In this document: piece by piece, positions 9,544 to 46,557 of the stretch
Layout of the letters: the number at the start of each line of letters is the position of its first letter
Position numbering within the stretch: the stretch's first letter is position 1
Source: Alphaproteobacteria bacterium
GTDB lineage: Bacteria; Pseudomonadota; Alphaproteobacteria; Rs-D84
Assembly: GCA_017524525.1 (NCBI GenBank)
Contig: JAFXVM010000014.1
Coordinates: 5,680 to 69,679 of the forward strand
Direction: 5' to 3'
DNA: 64,000 bases
Notes under the pieces: generated by a model
What the model saw: the letters and a program-made list of their open reading frames with translations, nothing else
Told to the model about the DNA's origin: nothing
The model's database searches: none
Program-made: the position numbers and the translations under genes

Positions 9544-11259
9544 TTATTTATTAGATTGTTGCAAGGCTGGTATTATAGCATCGTCATTATATTGCGACAA
9601 GAATCTTTGACCTGTCACACATACGAAATTAGACAAAGAATCTTTGTATTCGCGCACAGCGGCAACCCAACGTTCGGAAACTTCTGTTTTTGCGCCTTCA
9701 TAGCCAGCAAAACCACCCAAAGCACCGCCCGCAGCAGTTCCAGCCAAAGTCCCTTTTAACCGAGCCTGGTTTGACAAATCGACCAATCCGCCATCAGATG
9801 CATTGCGAGAATTCGGGCTAAAGCGGATTTTTTCTTTGTCTTCTGTGATTTCAGAACCCACAGAACCATCTGAATTACGATAATAATATTTTGCTTGATT
9901 ACTTATCGTATCCCATTCGGAAACTTTATATCCGCCGAGCTTTTGCAAAGAACCACTTGAAAACACTGCGTATGCTAATATCGCGTTCCCAGAAGCCTTT
10001 TTGGCAGAAGCAACTTCGTAATATTGTTCATCAACATTCTCATCAGATACAGCTTTAAACAAATCTGCCCCAACGTCAGTTGCAGGTTGATAACGCTTAA
10101 GTTGACGCCTTTCAGTATCTTGCGTATTTCCAGATTTAAAGATATCATTAAACGAAACAGACCCACCTGATCCTTTTTTAAATTGTATATCAAGCAATCT
10201 CACTGAAGGTGTTTCACATTTAAAATAACCATCGCTCGATGCTTTACACTCTTTTACAACATTGTTTTTATTTACAATGAAAAAACCTTCGTCGTACTTA
10301 GATTTCAATTCATCATCAGTAACCGTATAAATTCTACCCTGCACACAATCATGTTCAACCTTAGTTGCGCCTTCGCCGACTTCACATTTTACAACCGCCA
10401 TGACGCTGTCGCTGCCACTGGCACCTGCCATCATATTACCGATAATCATACCCGAAGCAGCATTCACCGCAGTAGATTTAATAGTGTCCCCCGCAACTTT
10501 GCCGGAATAAGTACTGGCTGCCATAATGCCTGCCCCAGCAGTTGCGCCGATTGCGGTATCAAGTAATCTGGTTTTTCCTGTGCCAAAAAGTTTATTATCA
10601 CCAGCCGTCTTTGGTCCCAACATATTACCAGCAACCCCAGCAATAAGAGCTCCCGCGGCAATCTTTAGCCCGGCATTCTGCTTTTGTTCTTGGTTCATTG
10701 CTTGTTTAACTTCTTCTTCGGTTGGCGCTCTGTCTGCAGGCAACATAGTTTTTGAAAGCGCGGCAGCGTTCATACCAGATTCCGGAAAAGAATCAATGTT
10801 GCATTTTATAGAATCACCTGCTGCTACAGTAGTAGTTGCCAAAATTTCTTTGGAATTCGCATCACGTAATTCAACCACCGCCACACATTGAGGCGTTTGG
10901 TCTTTGCGATAACCTGATTCTGGGATTTCCCATTTAAAAACACCCGTAGGAATCAGCATCGCGCATGATTCTAAGTGTGCCATAGTCGTGGTAGATTTGT
11001 TGTTTAAAATTGCTTCTGCTAATTTTTTATCTTCGACTGCTACTGGTAAATTTTCAGTAGCACTAGCAGTTGTTGCCCCAGGGTTATTCGCAGCCATCGC
11101 ATCCATATATTCTTGTTGATAACTTAACATGCTAACTTGGTTATACGCGTCAGCACGGCTACGGGCAGCGTTTGGTCCAGCATAAACAACAACTGGCGAT
11201 GCAGAAACACACGCCAAAATCACTGAAAACAAAGATAATTTACAAATTCTCTCTCTCAT
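9544..11259 (-). CDS. secreted hypothetical protein with glycine-zipper segments (571 aa)
   Basis: Signal peptide ...SVILACVSASPVVVYA. Gly/Ala-rich hydrophobic runs (AAGALIAGVAGNMLG, AIGATAGAGIMAAS, GMIIGNMMAGASGS, LAGTAAGGALGGFAGY). Starts 11 nt after the OMP gene stop. Confidence 0.6.
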   Translation of the reverse strand: MRERICKLSLFSVILACVSASPVVVYAGPNAARSRADAYNQVSMLSYQQEYMDAMAANNPGATTASATENLPVAVEDKKLAEAILNNKSTTTMAHLESCAMLIPTGVFKWEIPESGYRKDQTPQCVAVVELRDANSKEILATTTVAAGDSIKCNIDSFPESGMNAAALSKTMLPADRAPTEEEVKQAMNQEQKQNAGLKIAAGALIAGVAGNMLGPKTAGDNKLFGTGKTRLLDTAIGATAGAGIMAASTYSGKVAGDTIKSTAVNAASGMIIGNMMAGASGSDSVMAVVKCEVGEGATKVEHDCVQGRIYTVTDDELKSKYDEGFFIVNKNNVVKECKASSDGYFKCETPSVRLLDIQFKKGSGGSVSFNDIFKSGNTQDTERRQLKRYQPATDVGADLFKAVSDENVDEQYYEVASAKKASGNAILAYAVFSSGSLQKLGGYKVSEWDTISNQAKYYYRNSDGSVGSEITEDKEKIRFSPNSRNASDGGLVDLSNQARLKGTLAGTAAGGALGGFAGYEGAKTEVSERWVAAVREYKDSLSNFVCVTGQRFLSQYNDDAIIPALQQSNK

Positions 11260-25801: not shown

Positions 25802-28630
25802 TTAAGGTGTTGTTCGCACTCTCCATCCTGTTGAATGGAACCCAGTTCTTGTAAATGTTCCGCTTGGGAATGCAACCGCACCATCATATGTACAAGAATT
25901 AGATTCAACCAAATTGTTTTGATTGTACCAGTTCAAAGTAATGGTTGTCGCATCACAGTATTGAACCGCGCCCAATGTTCCAAACAAATCTTTGCGGAAT
26001 GAAGAACTGTCGGTTATATTTGTGACACAAGTTTGTGCGCAATATGTTGAACATTGTGCTTGGTCGTTAAAAGTATTTTGAACTGGGGTTATATGTGCTG
26101 GTGTCACAGTCACATTGGAACCGCCCAACAACGAATACCCTGTTAAATTGCAAGAACAATCATAAGTATTGCTTGCGTTAATTGCACAGGTTGCATTACC
26201 GTTGATTTTGGTGTTATCGCTCCATTTAATTTCCCAATCACCCGGTGTCATACCCGTAGTTGCGCCTTGGTCGTTGCCAGAACTGCTGCCCGATGCGGAA
26301 CTGTCACCTGCAAGATATTTTATATTCTGGTTATAAACACCCAATATTGATTGCAACACATAATTCGACAAAGCCCCTGGGGTATTGGATGCATAACCAG
26401 TCGAACAATTCAAAGCCGTCACAGCGCAAGCGCCAATTGAATCAAGTATGCACCCAGCAACACTGCCACTGTATTCTTTACAGGTTGCGTTTGTATTCGC
26501 ATACGTTGCACCGCTTTCTTTGTTGGCATTTGTGACCCCAGTGCGTGGGTTAATAGTTGCACATACCACAGAACCAGTCTTATAACACTGTTTGTCACTT
26601 ATTGCACCTGCGGCAGAATATGGATAAGTTGTCGAACAAGCGTTAATTCCCTGATTAACGTTCTTATAGAAGAATGTTCCACCCGGACAATAAGAATTTG
26701 CAGTGCATGGTTGACATACCATCGTGTTTGCTGGCAGGTAAGTCCCCGGTTCACAAACATACTGTGCCTGGTCACACACAGGTTGTTTACCCAAAGAATC
26801 AAAAAGAAGCAAACGTGAATTTTGTTCGCGCGCTATTGCCTGTGCACAGGTCAGAGTACATTTGTCTTGACAAATTTGTTGTGTGTCGTATTCGAAAGCT
26901 TTAATCGTATTTGCAGGTGACACAGATACTGGGGTTGCGCCCAACAATGAATAGCTGTCCAAACTGCAGTTGCAATCATATTTGCCGTCGGCATTAATTG
27001 AACATGAAGCAAATCCATGAACATAGGTATTATCAGACCAAGTTAAGCGATATTCACCATTTGTCATTCCTGTTGTTGTACCTTGATTGTTAGCATAACT
27101 ACTTGGACCATTTGCACCAAGTGATAAAAAAGATATATTGGTGTTATAATCCCAAAACATATCTTGAATAACATAATTTGCAAGTGGTCCCGCGGTTGTC
27201 GCTGTATACCCCGCATCACAAGCCAACGTCATCGCACATGCACCAATCGGGTCGGTTCCGCCACCAACAGCATAAGAAGCCCCATTCCAGAACGTTATCA
27301 CAGATGCATTTGTGTTTGTATACGATGCAGTACCATGACCCGCCGTATACGGATTAAGGCTAGAGCAAGCCTTGGACCCAAGGATATAACACTGACTTTC
27401 GACTGTTGCGCCAGACAAAGAATAAACCGCAGAACCATTTACGTCGCTTGGACATGTTTTTATCCCTTGGGCATCAGAAAGTTGTGGGAATGTTCCCCCC
27501 GGGCAATAACTGCCACTTGGACAAGGTGAACAAGTTGTCGCATTAGCTGCCAAATATGTTCCCGGTTGACATGTATAGGTTATCTGTTCACATGCCATCT
27601 GTTGACCATATGTTCCCAATATCGCGAGTTCAAGACTAGGTTTGTCGTGAAATGATCTATAGCATTCATATACACAAGCATCTGCACAGTCTGTCGCATT
27701 TCCGAAAATATTCAGTGACACCCAATCAGTATCTGTTGTTGTCACTGTTGTGCCAGAATTTGTTGTATAACTGTCCATATTGCACCAACATTGTGTACCT
27801 GTGCTGGATGGGCTAAAAGTTGCATTCGGACGCGTTTCTCCATGTTCGCTGTTAGTATTATCGCATGATGTACGCATATGTATTTTTGCGCCATCATTCC
27901 AAGCATATTCCACGGTGCCATTTGTCATATTCGTCGAATCGCCAAAACCCAGTGCGACACTGCTGCTACCGTTGCCAGTTGTAGAACCACTGCGCGCGCG
28001 CCATTTCGTATTAGATTTTGATATCTTTGAAGATTGTGCAACATAATTTGCCATTGCACCATTTGTAGATGGATTTAAATTGTACCCATTGTTACAGGTT
28101 AAACTTACGATTGCACATGCACCAATTGTATTTGAAACAAGCGTTCTGTTAATCGCATATTCCCTGGCGGGTACCGAAGAACCAGAAGTTGCGTATGTCG
28201 CGGTCCCATTAACAACAGGATTAATGTTTGCACATGATGTCGTTTTGGCACTATAACACATGTTAGAATTGTCGTTTCCTGTATCAGAAAGATGGTAGAA
28301 AGACTCATGATAGTCTGAACAAGCCTTAATTCCCACATCCGATGTTTCATCAAATGTATATGTACCACCCGGACAAACATAATTTTGGGTACATGTCAAA
28401 CATGTCGCGGTTAAATGATCCAAAAATGTCCCAGGATTGCAAGTATATGTATTTGGCGTCCATCGTGCGATAAATTTTGTCGCAGCATCGGTTTCCAACG
28501 CGCTGTTTACGCTGCACATAGCGTTCACGCCATTTATTTTACCACTGGTATCAATAGTCACGGCCAAAGCAGGGCACGCAACGCAAATTGCGATAATAGA
28601 CGGAAAAAGAATTTTTTTTCTGTTATACAT
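25802..28630 (-). CDS. secreted cysteine-rich modular repeat protein with a C-terminal flg_new (Listeria-Bacteroides) repeat, family member 1 (942 aa from M19)
   Basis: Leader MYNRKKILFPSIIAICVACPALA, three ~270-290-aa Cys-rich modules, and terminal ITLNWY...SCTYDGAVAFP...TRTGFHSTGW. Confidence 0.8.
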   Translation of the reverse strand: MYNRKKILFPSIIAICVACPALAVTIDTSGKINGVNAMCSVNSALETDAATKFIARWTPNTYTCNPGTFLDHLTATCLTCTQNYVCPGGTYTFDETSDVGIKACSDYHESFYHLSDTGNDNSNMCYSAKTTSCANINPVVNGTATYATSGSSVPAREYAINRTLVSNTIGACAIVSLTCNNGYNLNPSTNGAMANYVAQSSKISKSNTKWRARSGSTTGNGSSSVALGFGDSTNMTNGTVEYAWNDGAKIHMRTSCDNTNSEHGETRPNATFSPSSTGTQCWCNMDSYTTNSGTTVTTTDTDWVSLNIFGNATDCADACVYECYRSFHDKPSLELAILGTYGQQMACEQITYTCQPGTYLAANATTCSPCPSGSYCPGGTFPQLSDAQGIKTCPSDVNGSAVYSLSGATVESQCYILGSKACSSLNPYTAGHGTASYTNTNASVITFWNGASYAVGGGTDPIGACAMTLACDAGYTATTAGPLANYVIQDMFWDYNTNISFLSLGANGPSSYANNQGTTTGMTNGEYRLTWSDNTYVHGFASCSINADGKYDCNCSLDSYSLLGATPVSVSPANTIKAFEYDTQQICQDKCTLTCAQAIAREQNSRLLLFDSLGKQPVCDQAQYVCEPGTYLPANTMVCQPCTANSYCPGGTFFYKNVNQGINACSTTYPYSAAGAISDKQCYKTGSVVCATINPRTGVTNANKESGATYANTNATCKEYSGSVAGCILDSIGACAVTALNCSTGYASNTPGALSNYVLQSILGVYNQNIKYLAGDSSASGSSSGNDQGATTGMTPGDWEIKWSDNTKINGNATCAINASNTYDCSCNLTGYSLLGGSNVTVTPAHITPVQNTFNDQAQCSTYCAQTCVTNITDSSSFRKDLFGTLGAVQYCDATTITLNWYNQNNLVESNSCTYDGAVAFPSGTFTRTGFHSTGWRVRTTP
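25949..28447 (-). repeat. three tandem Cys-rich coding modules (type A, B, B)
   Basis: Module heads Y-x-C-x-P-G-T-[FY]-L at aa 80, 370 and 642 of the track ORF. Module nt ranges are 27578-28447, 26762-27577 and 25949-26761. Confidence 0.75.
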
Positions 28631-28862
28631 ACTTTTTTTCTCTCTCGTGGTGCAATTTTTTCGGCACTGAACCTGATACAACATAAATTACACCATCTGC
28701 CCATTTTTTATAAAAATGCCAGATTTTTGCCCTTTCCAGTCCGTTTTTTTACACCAACAAGTACTATATATATGAACATCTTAATATAAATCAAAAATAA
28801 AGAAAAGAGAAAAAAAAGAAAAAAGTCGTCGAAACGACTTTTTATTTCTTGACTTGTTAACG

Positions 28863-30683
28863 TTATTTTTCTATTTTGTCTTTATCTTCATTTTTGTCAT
28901 CTTTTTCATTGGTCTTAAATTGCATATCATAAAGCATCTTGTATGCACCACATTCTATTTTTAACAAATCTTCGTGTGTCCCAGTTTCAACGATTTGCCC
29001 GTCATTGACAACAATAATCTTGCTGGCATTACGGATGGTTGAAAGTCTGTGCGCGATAACGAACACCGTTTTATCATGCATCAAATTTTCAATCGCTTTT
29101 TGAACAACGGCTTCTGATTTGTTGTCCAGTGCCGATGTTGCTTCGTCCAGTACCAATATCGGCGCATTCTTCAAAAATGCACGTGCGATTGCAACACGTT
29201 GTCTTTGACCCCCAGACAGTAAAATTCCGCGTTCACCAATTTGGGTGTCTATGCCATCTTTTAGTGTTGCTAAAAATTCGTCCAAATAAGCCAATTTGAC
29301 GGCTTTCTGTAATTGTGCTTCGCTTGCGTTTTCGTCGCCCAACATAATGTTTTCGCGAATTGTTCCTTCGAACAAGAAATTGTCTTGGAATACAACTGCA
29401 ATGTTTTGACGCAAAGATTTCAAAGTAAAATCACGAATATCGCGCCCATCAACAGTTATAGAACCAGATGTCACATCATAAAATCTGGGTAATAAATTAA
29501 CCAAAGTTGTTTTTCCACCACCAGAATTTCCAACAATAGCGACAGTTTCGCCCTTATTCACAACCAAATTAATATGTTTTAATACTGGCACATCAGGAAC
29601 ATAATTAAATGTGACATCATTAAAACTAATTTGATGTTGCATAGCAGGCATTTCTATTGCATCTTCTTTGTCTTTGATTTTTGGTTGTGCGTCCAATATA
29701 TCAAAACATGTCTCGATTGCCCAAAAAGACATAATCACAGAACTGTATGTGTTTCCAATACTTTTCATTGGCTGATAAAGCAAAATTAATGCAGTCAAAA
29801 ACGACACAAATCCGCCTGGCGTTAATTGTTTAGATAAAATTAAATACGACCCAAACCAAAGTGCCAAAGCAATACCAATCGATAAAATAACATGCATTAC
29901 AGGTGTTAGCCAACGTGTTCTTTGGAAAACTTTCATTTGTAGATTAAAGTTTTTGTGAAGTACATCTACATATCTGTTTTCTTGGTATTTTTCCAAATTA
30001 TAAGAAACGATAGTTTTGTTTCCAGAATAAGTTTCATTATATTTGGTTGTCAAACGCGACATAATAGCCATCGCATTATTTAATACGGGGGATACGCGCT
30101 TTTTAAGAGACGCCATTGGCAAAAACGCAAACAATAAAACCGCCACAGTCACAAAAGCCAATTGCCAAGAATTAATGAAAAGCACGACTATCAATGAAAG
30201 CGAAGTAAAGAATTTTTGAACAAAAGATTTAAGATTCGATAATAACCCAGCGCAAGCAGCATCTGCATTAGAATTAAATCTTATTAATATCTCTCCGGAA
30301 TTTTTAGTTGTGAAAAATTCTGTTTCAAACATTAATAATTTTCTAAATAAATCTGCCTTTAACGCGTTAGTGATTTTCCCACCAACCCATGTATTAAGAT
30401 AATTTAGTGTATACGTTAATCCACCCTGAACAGTGGTGAACGCAACAATCAGTACAGGAATATACCAACTTGACTGCATGGTTTGTTCGACCATAACTGC
30501 GTCAGTATATGGCTTTATCGCCCATGCAATAACCGCATCCATTGAACCAACTGGAATCGCCAACAACAAAGTCATTAATGCACGGAACCACACAGGCTTA
30601 ATATATGGCCACATGCGCTTATAGTTTTTAACAAACATATTTTCCAAAACACGCCGTTTCATCGCGGCAGATAATTTTTCCAT
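28863..30683 (-). CDS. ABC transporter, fused permease/ATPase (MsbA-like exporter)
   Basis: Six N-terminal TM segments, Walker A GNSGGGKTT, signature LSGGQRQRVAIARA, Walker B ILVLDEATSALD. Start is chosen at M22 (AGGA upstream). Confidence 0.85.
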   Translation of the reverse strand: MEKLSAAMKRRVLENMFVKNYKRMWPYIKPVWFRALMTLLLAIPVGSMDAVIAWAIKPYTDAVMVEQTMQSSWYIPVLIVAFTTVQGGLTYTLNYLNTWVGGKITNALKADLFRKLLMFETEFFTTKNSGEILIRFNSNADAACAGLLSNLKSFVQKFFTSLSLIVVLFINSWQLAFVTVAVLLFAFLPMASLKKRVSPVLNNAMAIMSRLTTKYNETYSGNKTIVSYNLEKYQENRYVDVLHKNFNLQMKVFQRTRWLTPVMHVILSIGIALALWFGSYLILSKQLTPGGFVSFLTALILLYQPMKSIGNTYSSVIMSFWAIETCFDILDAQPKIKDKEDAIEMPAMQHQISFNDVTFNYVPDVPVLKHINLVVNKGETVAIVGNSGGGKTTLVNLLPRFYDVTSGSITVDGRDIRDFTLKSLRQNIAVVFQDNFLFEGTIRENIMLGDENASEAQLQKAVKLAYLDEFLATLKDGIDTQIGERGILLSGGQRQRVAIARAFLKNAPILVLDEATSALDNKSEAVVQKAIENLMHDKTVFVIAHRLSTIRNASKIIVVNDGQIVETGTHEDLLKIECGAYKMLYDMQFKTNEKDDKNEDKDKIEK

Positions 30684-33566: not shown

Positions 33567-33659
33567 GTTTTTTTTGTTTTTTATGAAAATATATATTTTT
33601 TTTGTTTTTTTTAATTTTGATTTGTGTTATAATGCCACTATAAAAGGAAGGAGATTTTG

Positions 33660-35228
33660 ATGAAAAAACTATTTTTAACCTCTGGGGTTATTTTATGCAT
33701 GGCGTGCCCAGCGCTTGCAACAACCGACATTGATTATTCTAATGGCAGTTATACTGCTGGTGGTGCAACACCTACCTGTGTGGAAGATATTACTGGTCAA
33801 ACAGAACAACTTTCAACAGCTGAATTTGAAGCGCGTTGGACTCCAATACCATATACGATTGCTTTTGCAGCGGGAACAGCGGGAACACATACACCCAGTG
33901 GTTCAACAGCATCTGTGACGCCTGTCACGTTTGATAGTACCAATATCGCATTGACTGCAAATGGATTTACACAATCTGGTTATCACTTTACGGGTTGGGA
34001 ATCTCCTGTTGATTTGACGGATGGAACTGCTGCACCAGTAGATCCGGGTTATGTTTTGTATCGTGGGACCCAGGCAAATACTCCTAATGGTGATTACAGT
34101 AGTGGTACGGTGGCATCTTACGGTTATGTCCCGGCATCTGGTACAACTGTCACACTTACTGCACAATGGGCGCCAAATACATACGACGTAGTTTATAATC
34201 CTGGTACTGCAAAAAATGGTTCTACTACTCATGCGGTGTCAGGAACCGCTTATACAGATACTGCAACATATGAAGCGGCATACACTGTGTTGAATAACAC
34301 AAACAGCAATCTTGGTTTTTCGCAAACTGGTTATCATTTTACTGGTTGGCGTGCAGATAACGACATTGTGACTCCTACATCTACTGCTTTAAGTGATTCT
34401 AATACGGCGGGCGGAACGCAATTTAGTGCGGGCGCAACACCAACGTATAAAGTCCTTGGGGCTGTCAATATGTATGCTCAATGGGCACCGGATCAATATG
34501 ATATATCGTACAATAGTGGTTTACATGGCAGTGCTTCCACGGATCCGTATGAGGTCACAAATGGTTTGACATATGATTCAACATGGACACCTGCTGCTTT
34601 TGCATCAACGGGTATCACAGCTGATTCCGGATATACATTCAGTCACTGGAATACCAGTTCAGATGATACAGGAGCCACCTATGTAGCAGGTACAGAACAA
34701 GCTGCGTGGACTTCTGAACAGGGTTTAAGTTTATATGCTATATATACTGCGAATCCTTATACAATCTCGTATAATTGTGGTTCTGCTGTTTCTGGTTCTG
34801 CGTCTACTGCGGGTGGTTCTGTTCCAGGAACACAAAATGTCTCTATGGACGGTCCATATACATTGGCAGCGAATACCTGTACAATGTCCGGTTATACGTT
34901 TAACGGTTGGTCATGTCCAAACTTACCAGGAACACCGACCATGCCTGCGGACGCAGAAACAAAGACATACTTTGCAGGTGGTGCAACAGGTACATACAGT
35001 TACGCAGGCAGCATAACATGTACAGCACAATGGAAACCAAACGACATTACTTTGAACTGGTATAATGATACAGTGGCTAATGGTGGAACGGCAATTAATG
35101 TGTCTGGTACTGATGCGGAGTCTTGTACGTATGACGATACAATTGATTTGGCTCCACTGCCAACCAAGACTGGTTATCACTTTACAGGGTGGACACTCAG
35201 AACAACACCTGCGTCACAAAACCCATAA
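33660..35228 (+). CDS. secreted flg_new (Listeria-Bacteroides) repeat protein, family member 2
   Basis: SD AAGGAGA. Leader MKKLFLTSGVILCMACPALA. Five G-Y-x-F-x-[GH]-W units separated by ...AQW.P[ND].Y... junctions. Ends TKTGYHFTGWTLRTTPASQNP. Confidence 0.8.
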   Translation: MKKLFLTSGVILCMACPALATTDIDYSNGSYTAGGATPTCVEDITGQTEQLSTAEFEARWTPIPYTIAFAAGTAGTHTPSGSTASVTPVTFDSTNIALTANGFTQSGYHFTGWESPVDLTDGTAAPVDPGYVLYRGTQANTPNGDYSSGTVASYGYVPASGTTVTLTAQWAPNTYDVVYNPGTAKNGSTTHAVSGTAYTDTATYEAAYTVLNNTNSNLGFSQTGYHFTGWRADNDIVTPTSTALSDSNTAGGTQFSAGATPTYKVLGAVNMYAQWAPDQYDISYNSGLHGSASTDPYEVTNGLTYDSTWTPAAFASTGITADSGYTFSHWNTSSDDTGATYVAGTEQAAWTSEQGLSLYAIYTANPYTISYNCGSAVSGSASTAGGSVPGTQNVSMDGPYTLAANTCTMSGYTFNGWSCPNLPGTPTMPADAETKTYFAGGATGTYSYAGSITCTAQWKPNDITLNWYNDTVANGGTAINVSGTDAESCTYDDTIDLAPLPTKTGYHFTGWTLRTTPASQNP

Positions 35229-35263
35229 AACAGTCTTTGGGTATCAAAAACTTGTGTCTAAGA

Positions 35264-35293
35264 AAAACACCCCAGAACGGGGTGTTTTTTTTT
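35264..35293 (+). terminator. intrinsic terminator after 33660-35228
   Basis: aaaacacccc-agaa-cggggtgt followed by T9. Confidence 0.75.
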
Positions 35294-35506
35294 GCGTTAA
35301 AAAACTCTTGATTTTTTTTGAAAATTTTTTGTATATACGTTTTTGCGAATCGTTTTTTTGCAAAATGCCTGATTTTCTAAAAATAAAATCCCCCAGATTT
35401 CTGCGGGTTTGTCTATACATTTTTGGCAAAAATATTTTATTTTGTCAAAAATTTGGTTTATGAAATTTTTGTGATATAATTACTAGTGAAGAGAGAAGAG
35501 AGAAAA

Positions 35507-36472
35507 ATGAAAAAGATTTTCTTAACATCAACTATTGTTTTATGCATGGCGTGCCCAGCGTTTGCTGATGACCCTGTGCCACCTACGGGCATAGCAATTG
35601 TTAACGGCGTTGCGCAAAACAATGACTGCGATCACGCTACTTTGGGTGTTTATAGTGGCTCTGTTAGTTTGGAAGCACAATGGACTGCTAAACGTTACAC
35701 TGTGACATATGACAAAGGTGCACACGCTGCGAGCGGTGTTAATAATTATGTAGACTCTTATAATGAACAAACAGGAACAGGTGGTGCCAGATACGACAGT
35801 AATTATACGGCACTGACTGGTGGTGGTGCTAATGCTGCTGCATCACAAACTGGAATTTATGCTGCGCCAGGTTACAGTTTTGTTGGTTGGACCACAGATC
35901 CAACACCTACATTTACAGATAATAATTTGAATCATGCTTGGGGTGGGGCAACTCCGTGGCAGACTGATGGCAATATAACAGTTTATGCTGCGTATAGCGC
36001 GGAAGGTATTGCGATTAGATTTGATTGCAATTATCCTTCTGGTGCATCTACGACAGAAAGTGGCACAGGTCCAGCGCCACAAAGTATTTTGATACCTATG
36101 GATACTTCTGGAACGCTCAGCGCAACATGTACATTGCCGGGTTATACATTTAATGGCTGGAATTGTACGGTTGGTTTAAGCGATTCGACAAATACTGCAT
36201 ATACATTAACAGAAGGCAGAACTTCACTTATCTCGAATGGGACCACGGTGTATATTCATAATGCCGAAGGTGTCGATTGTTATGCGAATTGGACTGCGAA
36301 TACAATTACGCTTAATTGGACAGATCCTTCTGGTACCAACACATATCAGCCGGGTTCTTGTACATATGACGGCGACGTCACATTGCCTGCTAATCCTGTT
36401 AGAACGGGGTACAAATTTGTTGGATGGACCGTTGGATCAAACCAACAAGAACAACAACAAACAAATCCATAA
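35507..36472 (+). CDS. secreted flg_new repeat protein, family member 3
   Basis: Leader MKKIFLTSTIVLCMACPAFA. Three G-Y-x-F-x-G-W units. Ends ITLNWTDP...SCTYDGDVTLPANPVRTGYKFVGWTVGSNQQEQQQTNP. Confidence 0.8.
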   Translation: MKKIFLTSTIVLCMACPAFADDPVPPTGIAIVNGVAQNNDCDHATLGVYSGSVSLEAQWTAKRYTVTYDKGAHAASGVNNYVDSYNEQTGTGGARYDSNYTALTGGGANAAASQTGIYAAPGYSFVGWTTDPTPTFTDNNLNHAWGGATPWQTDGNITVYAAYSAEGIAIRFDCNYPSGASTTESGTGPAPQSILIPMDTSGTLSATCTLPGYTFNGWNCTVGLSDSTNTAYTLTEGRTSLISNGTTVYIHNAEGVDCYANWTANTITLNWTDPSGTNTYQPGSCTYDGDVTLPANPVRTGYKFVGWTVGSNQQEQQQTNP

Positions 36473-40487: not shown

Positions 40488-43400
40488 TTATTGTATAACC
40501 TGATAACCCATAAAGTTATACCCGGTTCGTGTTTCTGCTGTGGGTAATGTAAAGTCATCATCATACGAACATTGATTCGTGGTCATTTGAGTGTTTCCAT
40601 CATACCACGTAATATTGTAAGTATTTGGATTACACGGTGCCACAGGGTTTTTGCCGTATGAACCAAACAGGACATTTTCAACCGGTTTGTCTAATAAGTA
40701 TTCCGATAGACTGCTGTTAAGGCATTCTTTGGAACAAGTGCTGGCATCGTCAAATCCTTTAATATACACCCAATTTGAATCATTTACATTTACTGTTGAT
40801 TGACTATTTAATTGATATCCGGTCATATTAATCCAACAATGTTTACCAGTGCTGGTTGAATTAAATGTAGCATAAGATTTTGTTTCGAAATCTGTACTGC
40901 CAGCGGTTGTGTTACACGATGCGCGTCCCATAATCTTGGTTCCATTATTATATACCAATTCAAATGTTCCCGCGGTCATACCGTTTGAAGAACCAGCATA
41001 TAATTCACTAGTGCCACTGCCAGTAGAACCGTCCAATTCCAGATATTTTGTAGAAGATAAATTCAAATTTCTGGATTGATTAATATAATTAACCAATGGG
41101 CCATCTGTCGTATTCATTGCGGCATAACCAGTGTTGCAACCACTGATAGATGATACAGCACATGCACCAATGGCGGTTATTTCTAGTTCGTCAGAGAAAT
41201 ATATTCTGGTTGCTGCGGTTTGATTAGCATAGGTCACACTTGATGCGCCACGTACTGGATTTACCACAGAGCATTGTTGTGTGCTGGGGTTTTTATAACA
41301 GAACCGCTTATCTTTTGCACCTGTATCAGAATATGAGTATCCGCTTTCGCATTGTTCTTTACCTTGGTCTTTGGTCGTACTAATGTCCCATGTTCCGCCA
41401 GGGCAATAATACCCATTGCCCGGACATATCGAACATGTTGTGTTGCCCATCGCCAAATATTCACCCGGCGCACAATTATATTGTGGAATACCACATTGTC
41501 TGGTATCACCCAAATCACCAAATTCAGGGGTCATGGCAGTTTGTTTTGCACAGTCATGTGCACATTCATACTGACAATCAGACAATGTTTTATCTTTCAT
41601 TGGCGTTAATATTGTCACAGCAGGATTAACAGATACTGTGCTGCCACTGCCGATTTTATAACTGGTTAAACTGCAATGACAATCATATTTGCCGTCCGCA
41701 TTTACATCACATGATGCGGTTCCGTTAACTTCTAGATCAGTACCATATACCAATCTAAATGTTCCGTTTTGCATACCAATATAATCACCTGTGCCTTCAG
41801 CCGCGCGACCGCTGTTTACACCACTATCACCATTTATTGCACGATAATGAACTTCTTTGTTGTTGTCAAAAGGCATACCAAACACAGGTGATTCATAATT
41901 TGATAATGGACCCGCAGAACCAACCAATGTTTCACCACTGTTTTGACATGTGGCATCTGTTATTGCACATGCCCCCACCGGAACAACAGAATTCACAACA
42001 GAATCAGTATAAGTGCGTCTTGTTGCTGTGGCATTAGCATAGGTTGCATCCGCATAATCAATTTTTAACAAGTCTTTGCAGTTTACTGTTTCTTCTTTGT
42101 AACAGAAACCAATATACGCTGTGCCTTGGGCTGAATTTGGATAATTACTTAAACATTTTTCTTTGCCTTGGTCATCTAAGCTACTGGCTTGGACGTTGTT
42201 GACACCTTTGCAGTAATAACCCGCCGGGCAAATTGCACAGGTTGTTTCGTTCTTTGGTAAATAATATCCAGGATTACAAGAATACGTTGGTATTTCACAT
42301 GCCATCTGTTGCCCGTATGTCCCCAACAAAGCAGACATCATTTTATTCACTATATTTGGATTTTCTGAGAAATTCACACACTTAGATGCGCAGTCGTTTG
42401 CACATCCTGAATTTGAATCGGCTTTTTTAACGAATGCCCAATCTGAATCATTTACATTTGTCGCACTGCCACCATTTAGTTGATACCCCGTCATATTGCA
42501 CCAACAATATTTACCAGTGCTGGATGAATTAAAGGTATTATTAGATCTGGTTTCGCCAACATTAACACCATCGGTTGAATTGCAAGATGCGCGAACATTT
42601 ATCTTTGTTCCGTCTGTCCATTGAATTATGCCCGTACCGTTCGTCATACCTGTTGAATCACCGTATCCATAGGATGCAGAACTGTTCTTTCCATCATCAC
42701 CATTTAACGCGCGGTATTTACAATTCGCCTTTGAAATATTGTGCGATTGATTGACATAATTCACAAGTACCCCATTTGTCGCAGGTGTCACAACATAACC
42801 GTTCGCTGTATCGCAAGTCAGTGCGGTTATTGCACATGCACCGATGTTTTCTGTTTCTGTGCCTGGCGTATAAGCGCCATAAGATGCGGTTGTGTTCGCA
42901 TACGTCACAGATGTAGAATTTGATACTTTGTTCAAAGTTGAACAGTTGTCGGTACCCGTTTCTTTATTACATTGTGTCTCAGCCCATGAACCGACCACAG
43001 ATTTGGTGAATCCGCTTGGACAATCGTATATTCCTTGTTCTTCTGTTGTGCTGTATGAAAAGAAACCGCCAGGACAGAAATGATTGATTGTACATTGTAC
43101 ACAAGCGGTTGCTTCTTTTGGTAAATAATATCCCGGCGCGCAAGTGTATTGGCTTATGCTGCACGCTTTCTGTTGTCCTAAATCATCAAATAAAATAACG
43201 CGGATGTCTCTATTACGGGCAATATCCATTGCGCACGTCTGGGCACATTTTGATTCAGCTGCTGACTGAAGTGGAAGTGCATCATAACTGCTGGTTGTAC
43301 CCTTAGCAGGATTAACCGTCACAGCAGAACCACCAGACAAAGTATAACTGTCCATACTGCAACTACAAGCATATTTCCCATCCTTGTAAAGGTAGGATGC

Positions 43401-46379
43401 ATATCCGTGTATTTTTGCACTGCCCAAATCAACTTCGTATTCACCGTTTAACATCCCCGTGTGTGAACCTTGGTTGTTATCACCACTGTTTTCACCATTA
43501 TCACCATTTATTGCACGATATCTGATATTTGGATTTGCTGTAAATGGTACAGATTGGATTATTGATGCCGACAAAGGACTATTTGATGCCGGTTCTATGC
43601 TATAACCTGTTGGACAGGTCAGGGTCGTTATCGCACATGCGCCCGGCGTTTCTAATGCGTCGCCACCACCCAGATAGTGTAAAACATTAGTTTTTGTATT
43701 TGCGTACCCCACAGACTGACCCTCTACAGGATTAATAGTGGCGCATGACACATCCGCATTTATTTTATAACAATATTCGCTGCTTCGTGCGCCCGCCGCA
43801 GACGTATAAGTGTCGTCTGCACCTTCTGCTTTTGTACAATTTTCGGCACCTTGGTCATCGTTTTCAGAATAAGTGAACGAACCCCCAGGGCAATAAAATC
43901 CAACCTTGCATCCAGAGCAAGTTGTGTCACCCGCTGCTAAATAATATCCAGGATTGCAAGTATATGTTCCAGCGCTGCATTCCATTTGTTGTCCCAATTC
44001 ACCCAATAATAATTCTATACCCGGTACTGTTGCTGAGCTTGTGCTTTTGCTCGAACCTGTGTCTTTATTGTCGTCGCTCTTTGAAACCGACACGGTTCTT
44101 TTGTTGATAAAGAAACTATATAAACAAGAATTAACACACTCGGCTGCACATATTTGATAATCGTGCTTTTTATCTTCGAACACCCAATCAGAATCGTTTA
44201 CACTTACTGCGGATGCATTATTTAATTGATATCCCGTCATATTGCACCAGCAATATTCACCTGTATCCGTTAAATCAACCTGGTCATTCGGCAGGGAAGA
44301 AACTGTTTTTTGTTTTGTATTTGCAGTACTTGGGTCTGTATAGGTAATCTTATTACTGGTTGCGCTGCAAACCGCACGACCAAATATTTGTGTTCCATTA
44401 TTATAAGCAACAGCAAATTGTCCGGTGGTCAAGCCAGTGGTTGAAGCACTGCTGTTATCTGTTGAACCGTCAATTGCATACCATTTTGTGTTTGCCCTTG
44501 ATATGCTGGATGATTGATTAATATACGCGGATAATGCGCCATTTGTACCAGATGAAGTATAACCCGTGTTACAAGTCAACGATTGTATCGCACATGCACC
44601 CACTGGGCTGATTTCTGTTCCAATATTGTAATAATCCCTGTAATTTGCAGATGTGTTTGCATAAGTAGCGGTTCCGTTTGTGACTTTATTAAATTCGGCA
44701 CAATTTTTTGTTCCGCTGTTCCCGTAACATTGGGATTCGTGTGTAGAATTCGCATCGGAATTTGGATATAATGGTGTGCCTATGTCATCCATTTTTAAAT
44801 CTGCACAACTTTTTATACCGCAATTTTTATCGTTGCTGTATGAACATGTTGCGCCAACACAATAAGAACCCGATGGACAGCCTGAACAACTGAAACCGCC
44901 CGCCGCCAAATATTGACCCGCTGGACATGTAATTGTGTCGCTGCAGGCGCTTTCACTTGTTGAACCAGTGGCAGAGAAAGTTTGATTGCCACTTGTGTCA
45001 AGTGGACATGCGGTTCTTCCTTGGTCTGCAACGGCGCTGTATTGATAAACGTTCGCCCTTGGACAATAAGAACCCGCTGGACATGTTGCGCATTGGGTTG
45101 TTGCCTTTGGTAAATATTGACCCGCCGGACATTCATATCCAACATAACAATCGCTTTGTTCATCAGAGCCCGCATCGGAATTAGGTGTCGCAACTGGACA
45201 GTTGTTTAATCCTTGGTCACTTCCGTTCGGTGTAAATGTTCCGCCCGCGCAATAATGGTCAGCAGGGCATATCACACATTGGTTTGTCGCGCCACTAAGA
45301 TATTGACCCGCACTGCAAGTCACAGAATCAGCAACACATTCCATTTGTTTAACAAGCGAACCCAAAAGTGCAAAGTTGACATCAAGTAACACTTCAAGAC
45401 AGCCTATAGAACAATAAGAAGCGCAACGTTCATTCGAAGTGCCGCCTTCCAAAAATTTCCAAGTTGGTGCAGATATTGTTTGTGTGGAACCATTGGCAAC
45501 AGCATAACTGTCTATTTTACACCAACAATTTGCCCCCGTGGTCCCAACGGTAAATGCGTTTGCGGGACGCGAAGCAACACCACCGTCCGCCCAAATTATG
45601 TTATATTTTTCTTCGTCGCTCAGTGAATCAAAACCCGACAAATCATGTTGTGAAACCGTTGTTGTATTACAAGTCGCAACACCACTTATTACCGTACCGT
45701 CAACCCAGCCAATTTGCCATTGACCATTGGTTAATCCCGTTGCATTAAAGCTAGTTTCGTTATCACCATTCAAAGCGCGCACCTTGGTGGTTGTTCCAGA
45801 CATATTGTGCGATTGATGGGTATAATTTGCCAATGGACCATTTGTTGATGGAATCTTTGAATACCCGCTGTCGCAAGTCAATGCAGTTAATGCACACGCG
45901 CCAATGTTATCTGTTTCTTGGCCACTTGGATATATCTTGTATGCCACAGATGTTTGGGTTGCATATGTTGGTGTTCCATTTAAAACCTTGTTTATTTTAT
46001 CACAAGTATCTGTCCCTGTTTCGCTGTAACATTGAGAATAACTCCATGAACCGGCAGCAGAATTTTTATATTGGTCATCATCACATGCTTTAATACCTTG
46101 GTCGGTGCCATCAAAAACAAATGTTCCGCCCCCGCAATAATTTTTTGTTGTACATTGAACACATGTCGCGGTTGTCGCGTCCAAATATGTTCCCGGATTG
46201 CAAGTGTAAGAATTTGCCTGGTACTTTGCGAAAAATTTCAGTGTGCCACCATCACTTCCCAAACCTGTATCACAGGTTTCTTGGCTGCTTGAAGTAATCA
46301 AAGTCGATTCGGCAACCCCAGAATATACAACGAATACAGCAAATACTGATGTCAGGAATATCTTGATTTTTGTGTTCAT
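40488..46379 (-). CDS. giant secreted cysteine-rich modular repeat protein with a C-terminal flg_new repeat, family member 4 (1963 aa from M16)
   Basis: Leader MNTKIKIFLTSVFAVFVVYSGVA, six Cys-rich modules plus two head-only units, and terminal YNITWYDGN...QCSYDDDFTLPTAETRTGYNFMGYQVIQ. Confidence 0.85.
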   Translation of the reverse strand: MNTKIKIFLTSVFAVFVVYSGVAESTLITSSSQETCDTGLGSDGGTLKFFAKYQANSYTCNPGTYLDATTATCVQCTTKNYCGGGTFVFDGTDQGIKACDDDQYKNSAAGSWSYSQCYSETGTDTCDKINKVLNGTPTYATQTSVAYKIYPSGQETDNIGACALTALTCDSGYSKIPSTNGPLANYTHQSHNMSGTTTKVRALNGDNETSFNATGLTNGQWQIGWVDGTVISGVATCNTTTVSQHDLSGFDSLSDEEKYNIIWADGGVASRPANAFTVGTTGANCWCKIDSYAVANGSTQTISAPTWKFLEGGTSNERCASYCSIGCLEVLLDVNFALLGSLVKQMECVADSVTCSAGQYLSGATNQCVICPADHYCAGGTFTPNGSDQGLNNCPVATPNSDAGSDEQSDCYVGYECPAGQYLPKATTQCATCPAGSYCPRANVYQYSAVADQGRTACPLDTSGNQTFSATGSTSESACSDTITCPAGQYLAAGGFSCSGCPSGSYCVGATCSYSNDKNCGIKSCADLKMDDIGTPLYPNSDANSTHESQCYGNSGTKNCAEFNKVTNGTATYANTSANYRDYYNIGTEISPVGACAIQSLTCNTGYTSSGTNGALSAYINQSSSISRANTKWYAIDGSTDNSSASTTGLTTGQFAVAYNNGTQIFGRAVCSATSNKITYTDPSTANTKQKTVSSLPNDQVDLTDTGEYCWCNMTGYQLNNASAVSVNDSDWVFEDKKHDYQICAAECVNSCLYSFFINKRTVSVSKSDDNKDTGSSKSTSSATVPGIELLLGELGQQMECSAGTYTCNPGYYLAAGDTTCSGCKVGFYCPGGSFTYSENDDQGAENCTKAEGADDTYTSAAGARSSEYCYKINADVSCATINPVEGQSVGYANTKTNVLHYLGGGDALETPGACAITTLTCPTGYSIEPASNSPLSASIIQSVPFTANPNIRYRAINGDNGENSGDNNQGSHTGMLNGEYEVDLGSAKIHGYASYLYKDGKYACSCSMDSYTLSGGSAVTVNPAKGTTSSYDALPLQSAAESKCAQTCAMDIARNRDIRVILFDDLGQQKACSISQYTCAPGYYLPKEATACVQCTINHFCPGGFFSYSTTEEQGIYDCPSGFTKSVVGSWAETQCNKETGTDNCSTLNKVSNSTSVTYANTTASYGAYTPGTETENIGACAITALTCDTANGYVVTPATNGVLVNYVNQSHNISKANCKYRALNGDDGKNSSASYGYGDSTGMTNGTGIIQWTDGTKINVRASCNSTDGVNVGETRSNNTFNSSSTGKYCWCNMTGYQLNGGSATNVNDSDWAFVKKADSNSGCANDCASKCVNFSENPNIVNKMMSALLGTYGQQMACEIPTYSCNPGYYLPKNETTCAICPAGYYCKGVNNVQASSLDDQGKEKCLSNYPNSAQGTAYIGFCYKEETVNCKDLLKIDYADATYANATATRRTYTDSVVNSVVPVGACAITDATCQNSGETLVGSAGPLSNYESPVFGMPFDNNKEVHYRAINGDSGVNSGRAAEGTGDYIGMQNGTFRLVYGTDLEVNGTASCDVNADGKYDCHCSLTSYKIGSGSTVSVNPAVTILTPMKDKTLSDCQYECAHDCAKQTAMTPEFGDLGDTRQCGIPQYNCAPGEYLAMGNTTCSICPGNGYYCPGGTWDISTTKDQGKEQCESGYSYSDTGAKDKRFCYKNPSTQQCSVVNPVRGASSVTYANQTAATRIYFSDELEITAIGACAVSSISGCNTGYAAMNTTDGPLVNYINQSRNLNLSSTKYLELDGSTGSGTSELYAGSSNGMTAGTFELVYNNGTKIMGRASCNTTAGSTDFETKSYATFNSTSTGKHCWINMTGYQLNSQSTVNVNDSNWVYIKGFDDASTCSKECLNSSLSEYLLDKPVENVLFGSYGKNPVAPCNPNTYNITWYDGNTQMTTNQCSYDDDFTLPTAETRTGYNFMGYQVIQ
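40635..46208 (-). repeat. six tandem ~270-320-aa Cys-rich coding modules (A, heads, A, B, A, B, A)
   Basis: Module nt ranges: 45324-46208, 43965-44933, 43149-43964, 42285-43148, 41481-42284 and 40635-41480. Head-only units lie at 44934-45323. Boundaries come from my residue count of the Y-x-C-x-P-G heads. Confidence 0.75.
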
Positions 46380-46557
46380 TTCTTTTTCTCTCTTGCAATA
46401 CTTTCTATGGGCATTGTTGCACAATAGAATAACCTTGTAAACAAAAAAATTTGATATTTTTGTATTTTGTTAAAAATATTAAAAAACCGCAGAAAACCGC
46501 CGTTTTTTGATATGGTTTGTATATACAAAAAATAACATGTTTTTGTGTAAAAAACAC

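What the first reader, a model, noticed from the sequence alone, without database searches (positions are those of the whole stretch)
25802..28630. 960-aa paralogue uses the same module set in a different order (A-B-B)
Seen: heads lie at aa 80, 370 and 642 of the track ORF. Module 1 (nt 27578-28447) carries the type A tail (Q-C-W-C-N-M-D-S-Y ... D-T-D-W). Modules 2 and 3 (26762-27577 and 25949-26761) carry the type B tail (D-G-K-Y-D-C-N-C-S-L-D-S-Y and N-T-Y-D-C-S-C-N-L-T-G-Y). Both giant genes therefore draw on one two-member module vocabulary, but with different copy number and order (A-B-B versus A-A-B-A-B-A). Inference: this is the pattern expected from recombination-driven cassette shuffling between paralogues rather than independent evolution.
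Basis: partly seen in the sequence, partly recalled or inferred. Interest (0 to 1): 0.6.

Follow-up and report, generated by a model that had tools for sequence, protein, structure and literature searches.

The report
Mosaic modular cysteine-rich surface-protein gene
A secreted, cysteine-rich surface protein of an uncultured gut alphaproteobacterium is built from three copies of an undescribed ~280-residue module in two loop variants; its A-B-B order comes from old tandem duplication, not from swapping with its larger neighbour gene, yet the gene is a hot spot where related strains and species exchange pieces.

Summary
The gene at 25802-28630(-) encodes signal peptide, three modules (A-B-B) and a Flg_new-like tail. 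The 1978-aa gene is A-[2 extra heads]-A-B-A-B-A. A and B are two states of one fold (AlphaFold pLDDT 94 for both). They differ mainly in one hairpin loop: 22-25 residues (up to 53) in A, 8-11 in B.

The inference of cassette shuffling between the two paralogues is not supported.
- The nine modules are only 28-44% identical.
- The two genes share no DNA tract longer than about 35 nt.
- Within type B, modules cluster by gene, so B-B is an intragenic duplication.
- Seven positional orthologues keep A-B-B although the flanking genes are saturated at synonymous sites.

Recombination is nevertheless real at this locus.
- Alleles are mosaics. In one triplet the informative sites form 169 runs, against 423±14 expected.
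- Exchanged tracts have dS 5-8 times lower, or 10-100 times higher, than the flanks.
- Rare variants change module content: A-B-B-B, A'-B and A-A'-…. A' is related to single-module paralogues found at another locus.

This is a mosaic surface-protein gene of a familiar evolutionary kind, built from an undescribed domain.

The parts
25802..28630 (-). g960 coding sequence (942 aa from M19; an upstream in-frame ATG at 28684 gives the 960-aa ORF)
   Evidence: start supported by homologues P0003-P0013
28562..28630 (-). Signal peptide MYNRKKILFPSIIAICVACPALA. The leader is shared with the small Flg_new genes at 33657-36472 and with g1978
   Evidence: read from the sequence; no signal-peptide predictor was run
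28448..28561 (-). Conserved N-terminal segment ending in ..FIARWTPNTY, just before the first module
   Evidence: invariant columns
27578..28447 (-). Module 1, type A (290 aa): about 45-aa Cys-rich head plus about 245-aa body
   Evidence: AlphaFold pLDDT 93.6, pTM 0.85
27788..27862 (-). Type-defining hairpin of module 1: the Cys at module residue 195, a 24-residue loop, then C-W-C. The loop lies between two beta strands of the model
26762..27577 (-). Module 2, type B (272 aa; 9-residue loop, DGKYD-CNC)
25949..26761 (-). Module 3, type B (271 aa; 9-residue loop, SNTYD-CSC). This is the part most recently exchanged with the L002 lineage (dS 0.22 against 1.3-1.7 in the flanks)
   Evidence: AlphaFold pLDDT 93.8
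25805..25948 (-). C-terminal Flg_new-like unit ITLNWYNQ...TRTGFHSTGWRVRTTP
   Evidence: 41% identity, E = 5e-12, to the Pfam-positive Flg_new unit of the neighbouring gene 33657-35228. Pfam itself gives no hit on g960
28763..28843 (-). Terminator-like hairpin of the upstream ABC-transporter gene (28820-28843), followed by a promoter-like site (28763-28790). Together they suggest g960 is its own transcription unit
   Evidence: consensus matches only
40488..46424 (-). g1978, the larger paralogue. Modules: L1_A 45324-46208; two extra heads 44934-45323; L2_A 43965-44933; L3_B 43149-43964; L4_A 42285-43148; L5_B 41481-42284; L6_A 40620-41480

Best explanation
g960 encodes a Sec-exported, disulfide-rich, modular surface protein of a genome-reduced gut alphaproteobacterium. 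Its order is signal peptide, short conserved N-segment, three ~270-290-aa modules, and one Flg_new-like C-terminal unit. Each module has a ~45-aa TNFR/ELAPOR-like Cys-rich head and a ~230-aa alpha/beta body with no known structural neighbour.

Types A, B and A' are states of one fold. They differ chiefly in the length of a single hairpin loop between two conserved cysteines (A 14-53 residues, B 8-11, A' 84 and helical) and in the following edge strands.

Shown:
(1) B is a single derived subtype, and A and B predate the split of g960 and g1978.
(2) The B-B of g960 arose by tandem duplication inside the g960 lineage. A further tandem duplication gave A-B-B-B in one relative.
(3) The two window genes have not exchanged DNA recently.
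(4) The locus (PPDK - ABC transporter - g960 - TM2/Zn-ribbon gene - 200-aa gene - P-type ATPase) is a hot spot of homologous recombination between diverged alleles of strains and species. Tracts run from about 0.2 to more than 1 kb, and breakpoints fall at module heads but also inside modules.
(5) Whole modules are occasionally lost by in-register head-to-head recombination, or replaced by a module type otherwise seen in single-module paralogues.

Inferred: the protein is an exposed adhesin or coat component. Its outer loops are the recognised or recognising surface. Allele exchange, not programmed switching, supplies the variation.
For: Anatomy.

Fold: both A and B models have pLDDT about 94 and pTM about 0.85, with the same order of strands and two C-terminal helices. 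Foldseek finds no PDB match below E = 0.05. The PDB sequence profile search finds only ELAPOR1 on the head, at E = 0.11.

Type history: the A|B split has 100/99, 100/98 and 100/99 support. Among 122 full-length modules of the wider family, B occurs only in g960-like and g1978-like proteins and in the last module of P0022 and P0030. The g960 Bs form one clade (82/89; 94/89). The g1978 Bs form another (97/85). P0009 m2 and m3 are sisters at 100/99.

No recent paralogue exchange.

Synteny of nine alleles.

Mosaicism:
- L001 vs L003: flanks are 96-99% identical, but the gene is 79%. dS is 0.016-0.15 in the flanks against 0.80 in m1 and 1.73 in m2.
- L001 has five alternating blocks, WIN-like and L003-like. 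Informative sites form 169 runs against 423±14 expected.
- WIN vs L002: dS is 1.30-1.67 in the flanks but 0.34 in m2 and 0.22 in m3. The 3' half of the gene is 87-97% identical.
- L002 vs L007: the flanks are 99-100% identical. The gene is 94-100% identical up to nt ~630 and 44-71% after that, and the architectures differ.

The A-A' allele is not an assembly chimera. Contigs of independent runs span the breakpoint, and one 9.2-kb sheep-gut contig covers the whole stretch at 96.5% identity.

Module loss: P0013 equals a P0011-like allele with an in-register deletion from the head of module 1 to the head of module 2.

A' kinship: 54% identity to single-module P0047 against 33% to g960 A; the clade has 100/100 support. 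P0047 lies at another locus, SIMPL-frr.

Selection: dN/dS is 0.19-0.37 in the modules and 0.03-0.16 in the flanking genes.

Stability: the window allele recurs with 0-1 differences and no joints in runs from several studies.
Against: - Function and surface location are inferred only. No signal-peptide or localisation predictor was run, and there is no expression or binding evidence.
- The organism's name (Ca. Enterousia, order Rs-D84) comes from earlier scan notes and was not tested here. The records themselves say only 'Alphaproteobacteria bacterium' or 'uncultured proteobacterium'.
- The AU test does not formally reject placing the locus A' modules with the multi-module clade (p = 0.078).
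- The A subtree is poorly resolved. The g960 module 1 head is closest to g1978 module 1 (57%), while its middle and tail are closest to g1978 module 4 (53% and 45%). An ancient inter-module or inter-paralogue chimera therefore cannot be excluded.
- Most alleles come from single metagenome contigs. Only the L007/L009 mosaic and the window allele were checked against independent runs.
Confidence: 0.7

Rival explanations
1. One reading: the two window paralogues draw on a shared A/B cassette set, and recombination or gene conversion between them keeps reshuffling module order.
For: A groups with A and B with B across the two genes. The g960 module 1 nests next to g1978 module 4 (98/86), while its head resembles g1978 module 1. 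A GENECONV-like run of 16 concordant sites links S1_A and L4_A (global p = 0.034).
Against: Module identity is 28-44%. The best cross-gene DNA matches are 31-35 nt on the CWC and head motifs. The permutation test ignores rate heterogeneity, so motif runs look significant. The Bs cluster by gene. Orthologue modules cluster by position, and A-B-B persists while flank dS exceeds 1.
Confidence: 0.07
2. Programmed antigenic variation, as in pilE/pilS, vlsE or msp2: silent donor cassettes elsewhere in the genome are copied into this expression site at high frequency.
For: Sharp identity breaks separate strains whose flanks are 99-100% identical. In two runs, a contig joins a different upstream module to the same 39-nt head sequence. 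The family has several loci.
Against: The 64-kb window holds no silent partial copies with matching DNA. The window allele is identical in runs from several studies, without joints, although contigs hide rare variants. Exchanged tracts are 84-97% identical to the nearest known source, not 100%, as expected for exchange between lineages rather than copying within a genome. The whole genome could not be searched.
Confidence: 0.08
3. The mosaics are artefacts: metagenome assemblers joined co-occurring strains across the conserved heads.
For: Most alleles are known from one contig each. Breakpoints often lie at conserved motifs, where assembly graphs branch.
Against: The L007/L009 allele is spanned by contigs of independent runs and by one 9.2-kb contig from another host species. 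P0009 is identical on contigs from two samples. The window allele is in at least seven runs. Tracts differ by 3-16% from the nearest known 'parent', so they are not splices of the strains in hand. Reading frames are intact in all alleles.
Confidence: 0.07
4. Pure vertical descent with intragenic duplication only. The uneven identity along the gene would reflect uneven selective constraint, not recombination.
For: Modules cluster by position. dN/dS is below 1 everywhere.
Against: Synonymous divergence changes 5- to 100-fold along one gene and contradicts the flanks in both directions. Triplet site patterns alternate in blocks. Module trees conflict: P0005 m2 groups with WIN and P0004 at 100/99, but its m3 groups with P0006 at 100/99.
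Confidence: 0.03

Closest known systems
Mosaic surface-protein genes diversified by homologous recombination between alleles (e.g. pneumococcal PspA/PspC, streptococcal M and M-like proteins); comparison from my own knowledge, not tested here
   Same: Conserved leader and anchor-side end, with a variable modular middle. Alleles are block mosaics inside conserved flanks. Modules are gained and lost by recombination between repeated segments. Overall selection is purifying, with fast turnover.
   Different: The host is a diderm alphaproteobacterium with a genome reportedly under 1 Mb. The building block is a large disulfide-rich module of unknown fold rather than a coiled coil or choline-binding repeats. 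The anchoring mode is unknown.
Flg_new / Listeria-Bacteroides repeat proteins (PF09479, TIGR02543; InlB B-repeat)
   Same: The C-terminal unit of g960 aligns with a Pfam-positive Flg_new unit of the neighbouring gene (E = 5e-12). The leader and tail are shared with the small Flg_new genes at 33657-36472.
   Different: g960 itself gets no Pfam Flg_new hit. About 88% of the protein is the Cys-rich module, which is not a Flg_new unit.
TNFR-like / ELAPOR1 / Ephrin_rec_like (GCC2_GCC3) cysteine-rich repeats, and Giardia VSP-type CxxC repeats
   Same: The module head C-x-P-G-x-Y-L-x5-C-x2-C-x5-C-x-G-G has that look. The best PDB and Pfam similarity is to ELAPOR1 TNFR-like repeats.
   Different: All scores are below threshold: 13.7-16.1 bits against a cut-off of 33.2, and E = 0.11. 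There is no PF07699 hit. The head covers only about 15% of the module.
The 'CWC module' family noted earlier in this scan for the same genome (e1-1093765, e1-1093764, e1-2852457)
   Same: Same module. The profile of the nine window modules finds 1205 proteins at E<=1e-3, 100 of them at E<=1e-30. Many are single-module proteins with the same leader and Flg_new tail.
   Different: This report adds several points. A, B and A' are loop-length states of one fold. B is a single derived clade. The g960 locus is a recombination hot spot, while the module order itself is old.
Programmed cassette systems (Neisseria pilE/pilS, Borrelia vlsE, Anaplasma msp2); comparison from my own knowledge
   Same: A surface protein with segmental replacement.
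   Different: No silent cassettes were seen. The source tracts are diverged alleles at the same locus in other lineages. The allele is stable across samples.

Membership tests
Flg_new / Listeria-Bacteroides repeat (PF09479) | Match to the Pfam HMM above the gathering score (27 bits) | tested here: not met
   No PF09479 hit on g960 or g1978 even at E<=1. The neighbouring gene 33657-35228 scores 60.2 bits.
Flg_new / Listeria-Bacteroides repeat (PF09479) | Sequence homology of the C-terminal ~46 aa to a bona fide Flg_new unit | tested here: met
   41% identity over 56 columns, E = 5e-12, to residues 474-515 of the neighbouring protein, which is the Pfam-matched stretch.
TNFR_ELAPOR1 / GCC2_GCC3 cysteine-rich repeat | HMM match above the curated cut-off, or a significant structural match | tested here: not met
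   PF23091 scores 13.7 and 16.1 bits against a cut-off of 33.2, and PF07699 is absent. ELAPOR1 is found at E = 0.11 by profile and at E = 0.053 with TM 0.15 by Foldseek.
Undescribed 'CWC' head+body module family | Full-length match to the module profile with the conserved Cys framework: the invariant Cys positions, the GACA motif and the C-x-C hairpin | tested here: met
   All three g960 modules match HMM positions 1-275 at 326-334 bits. Sixteen columns are invariant, eleven of them Cys, across 26 modules. The wider family has 1205 members.
Mosaic (recombining) surface-protein locus | Alleles at one syntenic site whose segments have conflicting histories and synonymous divergence discordant with the flanks | tested here: met
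   Synteny. dS discordance. Block pattern and runs test. Conflicting module trees.
Programmed gene-conversion antigenic variation (pilE/pilS type) | Silent donor cassettes in the same genome with near-identical tracts | tested here: inconclusive
   None in the 64-kb window.
Programmed gene-conversion antigenic variation (pilE/pilS type) | Within-population heterogeneity of the expressed copy | tested here: inconclusive
   Contigs of seven runs show the window allele with 0-1 differences and no joints, but contigs drop rare variants. Small two-variant bubbles are seen in the L009 allele.
Inter-paralogue cassette shuffling between g960 and g1978 (the finding's claim) | Modules of one gene nested among modules of the other at short distance, or shared DNA tracts | tested here: not met
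   Bs cluster by gene. Module identity is 28-44%. Shared DNA is no longer than 35 nt and lies on motifs. The only hint is ancient: the head of S1 resembles L1 while its body resembles L4 (AU p = 0.042).

The most novel reading that the evidence does not exclude
The conserved ~45-aa heads and the LFGxLGxQxxC linkers could act as in-register recombination joints. These would let whole modules, and their A/B/A' apex loops, move between alleles and also between the several family loci of these tiny genomes: the ABC-ATPase locus, the nrdD-tRNA-Leu locus and the SIMPL-frr locus. That would make a genome-wide combinatorial system for varying the cell's main contact surface, built on a protein fold with no known relative.

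Supporting hints:
- A head-to-head deletion produced P0013.
- A' at the g960 locus is related to single-module genes at another locus.
- The SIMPL-frr locus holds a 456-aa single-module gene in one species and a 1601-aa multi-module gene in another.
- A contig joins a different module to the same 39-nt head.
Probability: 0.15. Interest if true: 0.7.

Novelty: new variant of a known kind. Interest (0 to 1): 0.45.

Why it matters
These bacteria have genomes reported to be under 1 Mb (PMC12306168) and are thought to depend on partners. Even so, they spend several percent of their coding capacity on this family. Three results help decide where to look for function and what to expect in strain-resolved metagenomics. 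The three 'types' are loop variants of one confidently predicted but unmatched fold. Module order is old and stable. The sequence is exchanged freely between lineages. The apex loop is therefore the likely recognition site, and the locus is a marker of gene flow between species. The case also carries a methodological lesson: cross-gene grouping of repeat types does not by itself show cassette shuffling.

Tried and rejected
I made no genome-wide search for other paralogues or donor copies and no check of the taxonomy.
- The search for related loci with the nine-module alignment failed for lack of a conserved stretch.
- A genome-contig scan with P0003 alone found nothing.
- A genome-contig scan with the orthologue alignment found two loci, one of which duplicates L007.
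- The metagenome-contig scan gave one 1.8-kb fragment.
- The third protein search, on module 3 plus the tail, found no new alleles.
- The second AU test was invalid: my name pattern also caught a B module. I repeated it correctly.
- Runs holding only 35-84% of the window's words looked like candidate mosaic alleles. They turned out to be the same allele at low coverage.
- The Pfam EGF_MSP1_1 hit on the B hairpin (25.9 bits against a cut-off of 27) and the DOMON and DUF7631 hits are sub-threshold. I set them aside.
- The weak Foldseek hits to MHC-like platforms have probability <= 0.1 and TM < 0.15. I set them aside too.
Full report
**1. What is there**

The ORF at 25802..28684 on the minus strand is 960 aa. 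All database homologues begin at its nineteenth codon (MYNRKK…, nt 28630), which gives 942 aa. The protein starts with a hydrophobic leader ending in A-L-A and then has a conserved segment ending in ARWTPNTY. Three modules follow, starting at aa 80, 370 and 642 of the 960-aa track. The last 46 residues (ITLNWYNQ…TGFHSTGWRVRTTP) align with the Pfam-positive Flg_new unit of the neighbouring gene 33657-35228 at E = 5e-12.

The second gene (40488-46424, minus strand, 1978 aa) reads A, two extra head-only repeats, then A-B-A-B-A.

A terminator-like hairpin of the upstream ABC-transporter gene and a promoter-like site lie between that gene and g960.

**2. What the modules are**

Each module has two parts. 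The first is a ~45-aa Cys-rich head (C-x-P-G-x-Y-L…C-x2-C…C-x-G-G). The second is a ~230-aa body with a G-A-C-A motif, a Cys…C-x-C hairpin, and two terminal helices carrying C-x3-C-x3-C.

With an alignment of only 26 modules, AlphaFold gives pLDDT 93.6 and pTM 0.85 for module 1 (type A). It gives 93.8 and 0.86 for module 3 (type B). The order of secondary-structure elements is the same in both.

Neither model has a PDB neighbour. The best Foldseek E-values are 0.053 and 0.61, and TM-scores stay below 0.2. A sequence profile against PDB finds only the TNFR-like repeats of ELAPOR1, on the head, at E = 0.11. Pfam gives only sub-threshold hits.

A and B differ mainly in the loop between two conserved cysteines.
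- In A the loop is 22-25 residues in most modules, with a range of 14-53.
- In B it is 8-11 residues.
- In a third state, A', it is 84 residues and helical.
- W follows the first Cys of C-x-C in A, against N, S, T or H in B.
- The next edge strands also differ.

Trees on sub-regions agree with this. The A|B signal is in the last third of the module (99/97), while head plus middle do not resolve it.

**3. How wide the family is**

A profile of the nine window modules finds 1205 proteins at E<=1e-3 among 1.84 billion cluster representatives. Of these, 472 reach E<=1e-10 and 100 reach E<=1e-30. Many are ~370-460-aa proteins with the same kind of leader, one module and a Flg_new tail.

Nearly all carry the A-like C-[WY]-C state. 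B occurs only in g960-like and g1978-like proteins and in the last module of P0022 and P0030. B is therefore a single derived subtype, with clade support 100/99.

**4. Does the order A-B-B versus A-A-B-A-B-A show shuffling between the paralogues?**

A groups with A and B with B at 100/99, 100/98 and 100/99. This shows only that the types are older than the genes. Five results argue against exchange between the two genes in any recent period.

(a) Pairwise module identity is 28-44%.

(b) At DNA level the best cross-gene matches are 156 nt at 69% and 31-35 nt at about 89%. The longest exact word is 20 nt. All lie on the leader-plus-first-head, CWC and other conserved motifs. In a GENECONV-like permutation test the longest concordant run is 20 polymorphic sites (L3_B-L5_B, within g1978). 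The best cross-gene run is 16 sites (S1_A-L4_A, global p = 0.034). The test ignores rate heterogeneity, so these are motif effects, not tracts.

(c) Within B, modules cluster by gene. The g960 Bs form one clade (82/89; 94/89) and the g1978 Bs another (97/85). B-B in g960 is therefore an intragenic tandem duplication.

(d) Across orthologues, modules cluster by position: m1A 99/99, m2B 94/90, m3B 100/99.

(e) Seven positional orthologues keep A-B-B, although synonymous sites of the flanking genes are saturated (dS 1.1-1.7).

One hint of an old chimera remains. The head of g960 module 1 is closest to g1978 module 1 (57%). Its middle and tail are closest to g1978 module 4 (53% and 45%). The whole module is sister to module 4 at 98/86. 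An AU test marginally rejects first-module orthology (p = 0.042). The test does not reject the g960 Bs being sister to the L5_B lineage (p = 0.21). This would fit an origin of g960 from a g1978-like ancestor by head-to-head deletion. The evidence is weak, and L1 is a long branch.

**5. The locus in relatives**

Every allele I could place lies at the same site: PPDK, ABC transporter, the surface gene, a small TM2/Zn-ribbon gene, a ~200-aa gene, then a P-type ATPase.

The architectures are:
- A-B-B in seven alleles;
- A-B-B-B in P0009, found on contigs from two samples, with m2 and m3 sisters at 100/99, i.e. a tandem duplication;
- A'-B in P0013;
- A-A'-… in P0011, cut off by the contig end.

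P0013 aligns with P0011 over the leader and first head, then skips to the body of P0011's second module. This is an in-register deletion between two heads.

The A' modules are 63% identical to each other. They are 54% identical to the single-module protein P0047 but only about 33% to g960 A modules. They form a 100/100 clade with single-module proteins and share their long helical insert. P0047 lies at a different locus, between a SIMPL gene and frr. An AU test does not formally exclude the alternative placement (p = 0.078). Import from another paralogue lineage is therefore favoured, not proven.

**6. Recombination between alleles**

This is the strongest result.

L001 and L003 are the same species by their flanks: the ATPase gene is 99% and the ABC gene 96% identical in DNA, with dS 0.016 and 0.15. 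Yet the surface gene is 79% identical, with dS 0.80 in module 1 and 1.73 in module 2. Sites at which L001 agrees with only one of WIN and L003 fall in five alternating blocks. The switches are near aa 100-120, 210, 270-330 and 600, the last being the start of module 3. There are 169 runs against 423±14 in shuffles.

WIN and L002 show the opposite pattern. Their flanks have dS 1.30-1.67, but module 2, module 3 and the tail have dS 0.34, 0.22 and 0.30. DNA identity of 87-97% continues about 300 nt past the stop codon.

L002 and L007 have flanks that are 99-100% identical. Their genes are 94-100% identical up to nt ~630 and 44-71% beyond that, and they differ in architecture.

Module trees conflict accordingly: P0005 m2 groups with WIN and P0004 at 100/99, while its m3 groups with P0006 at 100/99.

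Breakpoints fall at heads and also at conserved motifs inside modules. This is ordinary homologous recombination between diverged alleles, not exchange of whole cassettes.

dN/dS is 0.19-0.37 in the modules and 0.03-0.16 in the flanking genes. The protein is constrained, but less than housekeeping genes.

**7. Are the mosaics real, and is there fast switching?**

The L007/L009 allele is supported independently. Contigs from two further runs span the breakpoint with 6-10 differences. A 9.2-kb contig from a sheep-gut run of another study covers the whole stretch at 96.5% identity.

The window allele occurs with 0-1 differences and no joints in contigs of runs from several studies. This speaks against rapid programmed switching, although contigs hide rare variants.

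**8. Verdict**

- The module order is old and arose by duplication within each gene.
- The two window genes do not exchange sequence now.
- What recombines are alleles of the same locus across strains and species.
- Rare events add, delete or replace a module.

In evolutionary behaviour the gene resembles the mosaic surface-protein genes of streptococci (my own knowledge). In composition it belongs to an undescribed module family that earlier notes of this scan already flagged in this genome. I re-tested those notes in part: the fold without neighbours, the family size, and the g1978 architecture.

The organism name Ca. Enterousia (order Rs-D84) comes from those notes. The only paper I read on the group does not mention these proteins.

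Function as an exposed adhesin or coat protein is an inference. It rests on the leader, the cysteine framework, the Flg_new tail, the family expansion in a tiny genome, and the pattern of variation.

Noticed in passing
L010 8001-9371; L012 6001-10806; L013 986-5791: The site between a SIMPL gene and frr/uppS/cdsA/rseP/bamA holds a 456-aa single-module A' protein (P0047) in one genome. In a related genome (LigA 77% DNA identity) it holds a 1601-aa protein with about 11 heads followed by A-B-A (P0012). P0012's last two modules are the closest relatives of g1978 modules 5 and 6, yet g1978 sits at a different locus (nrdD…tRNA-Leu) in the window.
   Followed up: partly
L009 8071-8109 (runs X27, X28): A 740-nt contig matches only the 39 nt at the head of module 3. 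Upstream it carries different sequence (…GACCTTGGTGCATATCCAATTTGTGAACCA, a different linker). So another module context shares an identical head sequence within the same samples. There are also two-variant bubbles at L009 6921-7064, with 0 versus 7 differences.
   Followed up: no
window 43149-43964 (L3_B) and 40620-41480 (L6_A): Two g1978 modules have each lost one framework cysteine. L3_B lacks the Cys before the hairpin loop (…GYAS-YLYKDGKYACSC). L6_A has C-W-I instead of C-W-C. Both losses are kept in the 1965-aa orthologue P0021, so they are not sequencing errors.
   Followed up: partly
L001 about 11100-11150 (P0005 module 2): An in-frame deletion of about 25 residues removes the second half of the Cys-rich head of module 2 (…CSPCPS|DENGSAVY…). 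The frame stays open, so a complete head may not be essential.
   Followed up: no
L001 21307-22763: A large serine recombinase gene (Resolvase + Recombinase domains, 539 aa, cut off by the locus end) lies about 8.5 kb from the surface gene in this genome only. No such gene was seen at this site in the shorter loci L002-L004 and L006, which do not all extend as far on that side.
   Followed up: no
window 28740-28946: Contig word depth jumps to 140-185x in two runs (against about 5x around it), and many contigs match only 30-100 nt here. The stretch covers the 3' end of the ABC-transporter gene and its terminator. The cause is probably a low-complexity or widely shared short sequence.
   Followed up: no
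window 26132-26215 (aa 824-851 of the 960-aa track): The type-B hairpin of module 3 gives a near-threshold Pfam hit to EGF_MSP1_1 (25.9 bits, cut-off 27). The database also records this family for P0003 and P0004. It is probably only a match of the cysteine pattern.
   Followed up: no
window 28631-28684: The mechanical ORF starts 18 codons upstream of the start used by all homologues. The extra codons (MLYQVQCRKNCTTREKKS) are probably not translated.
   Followed up: partly
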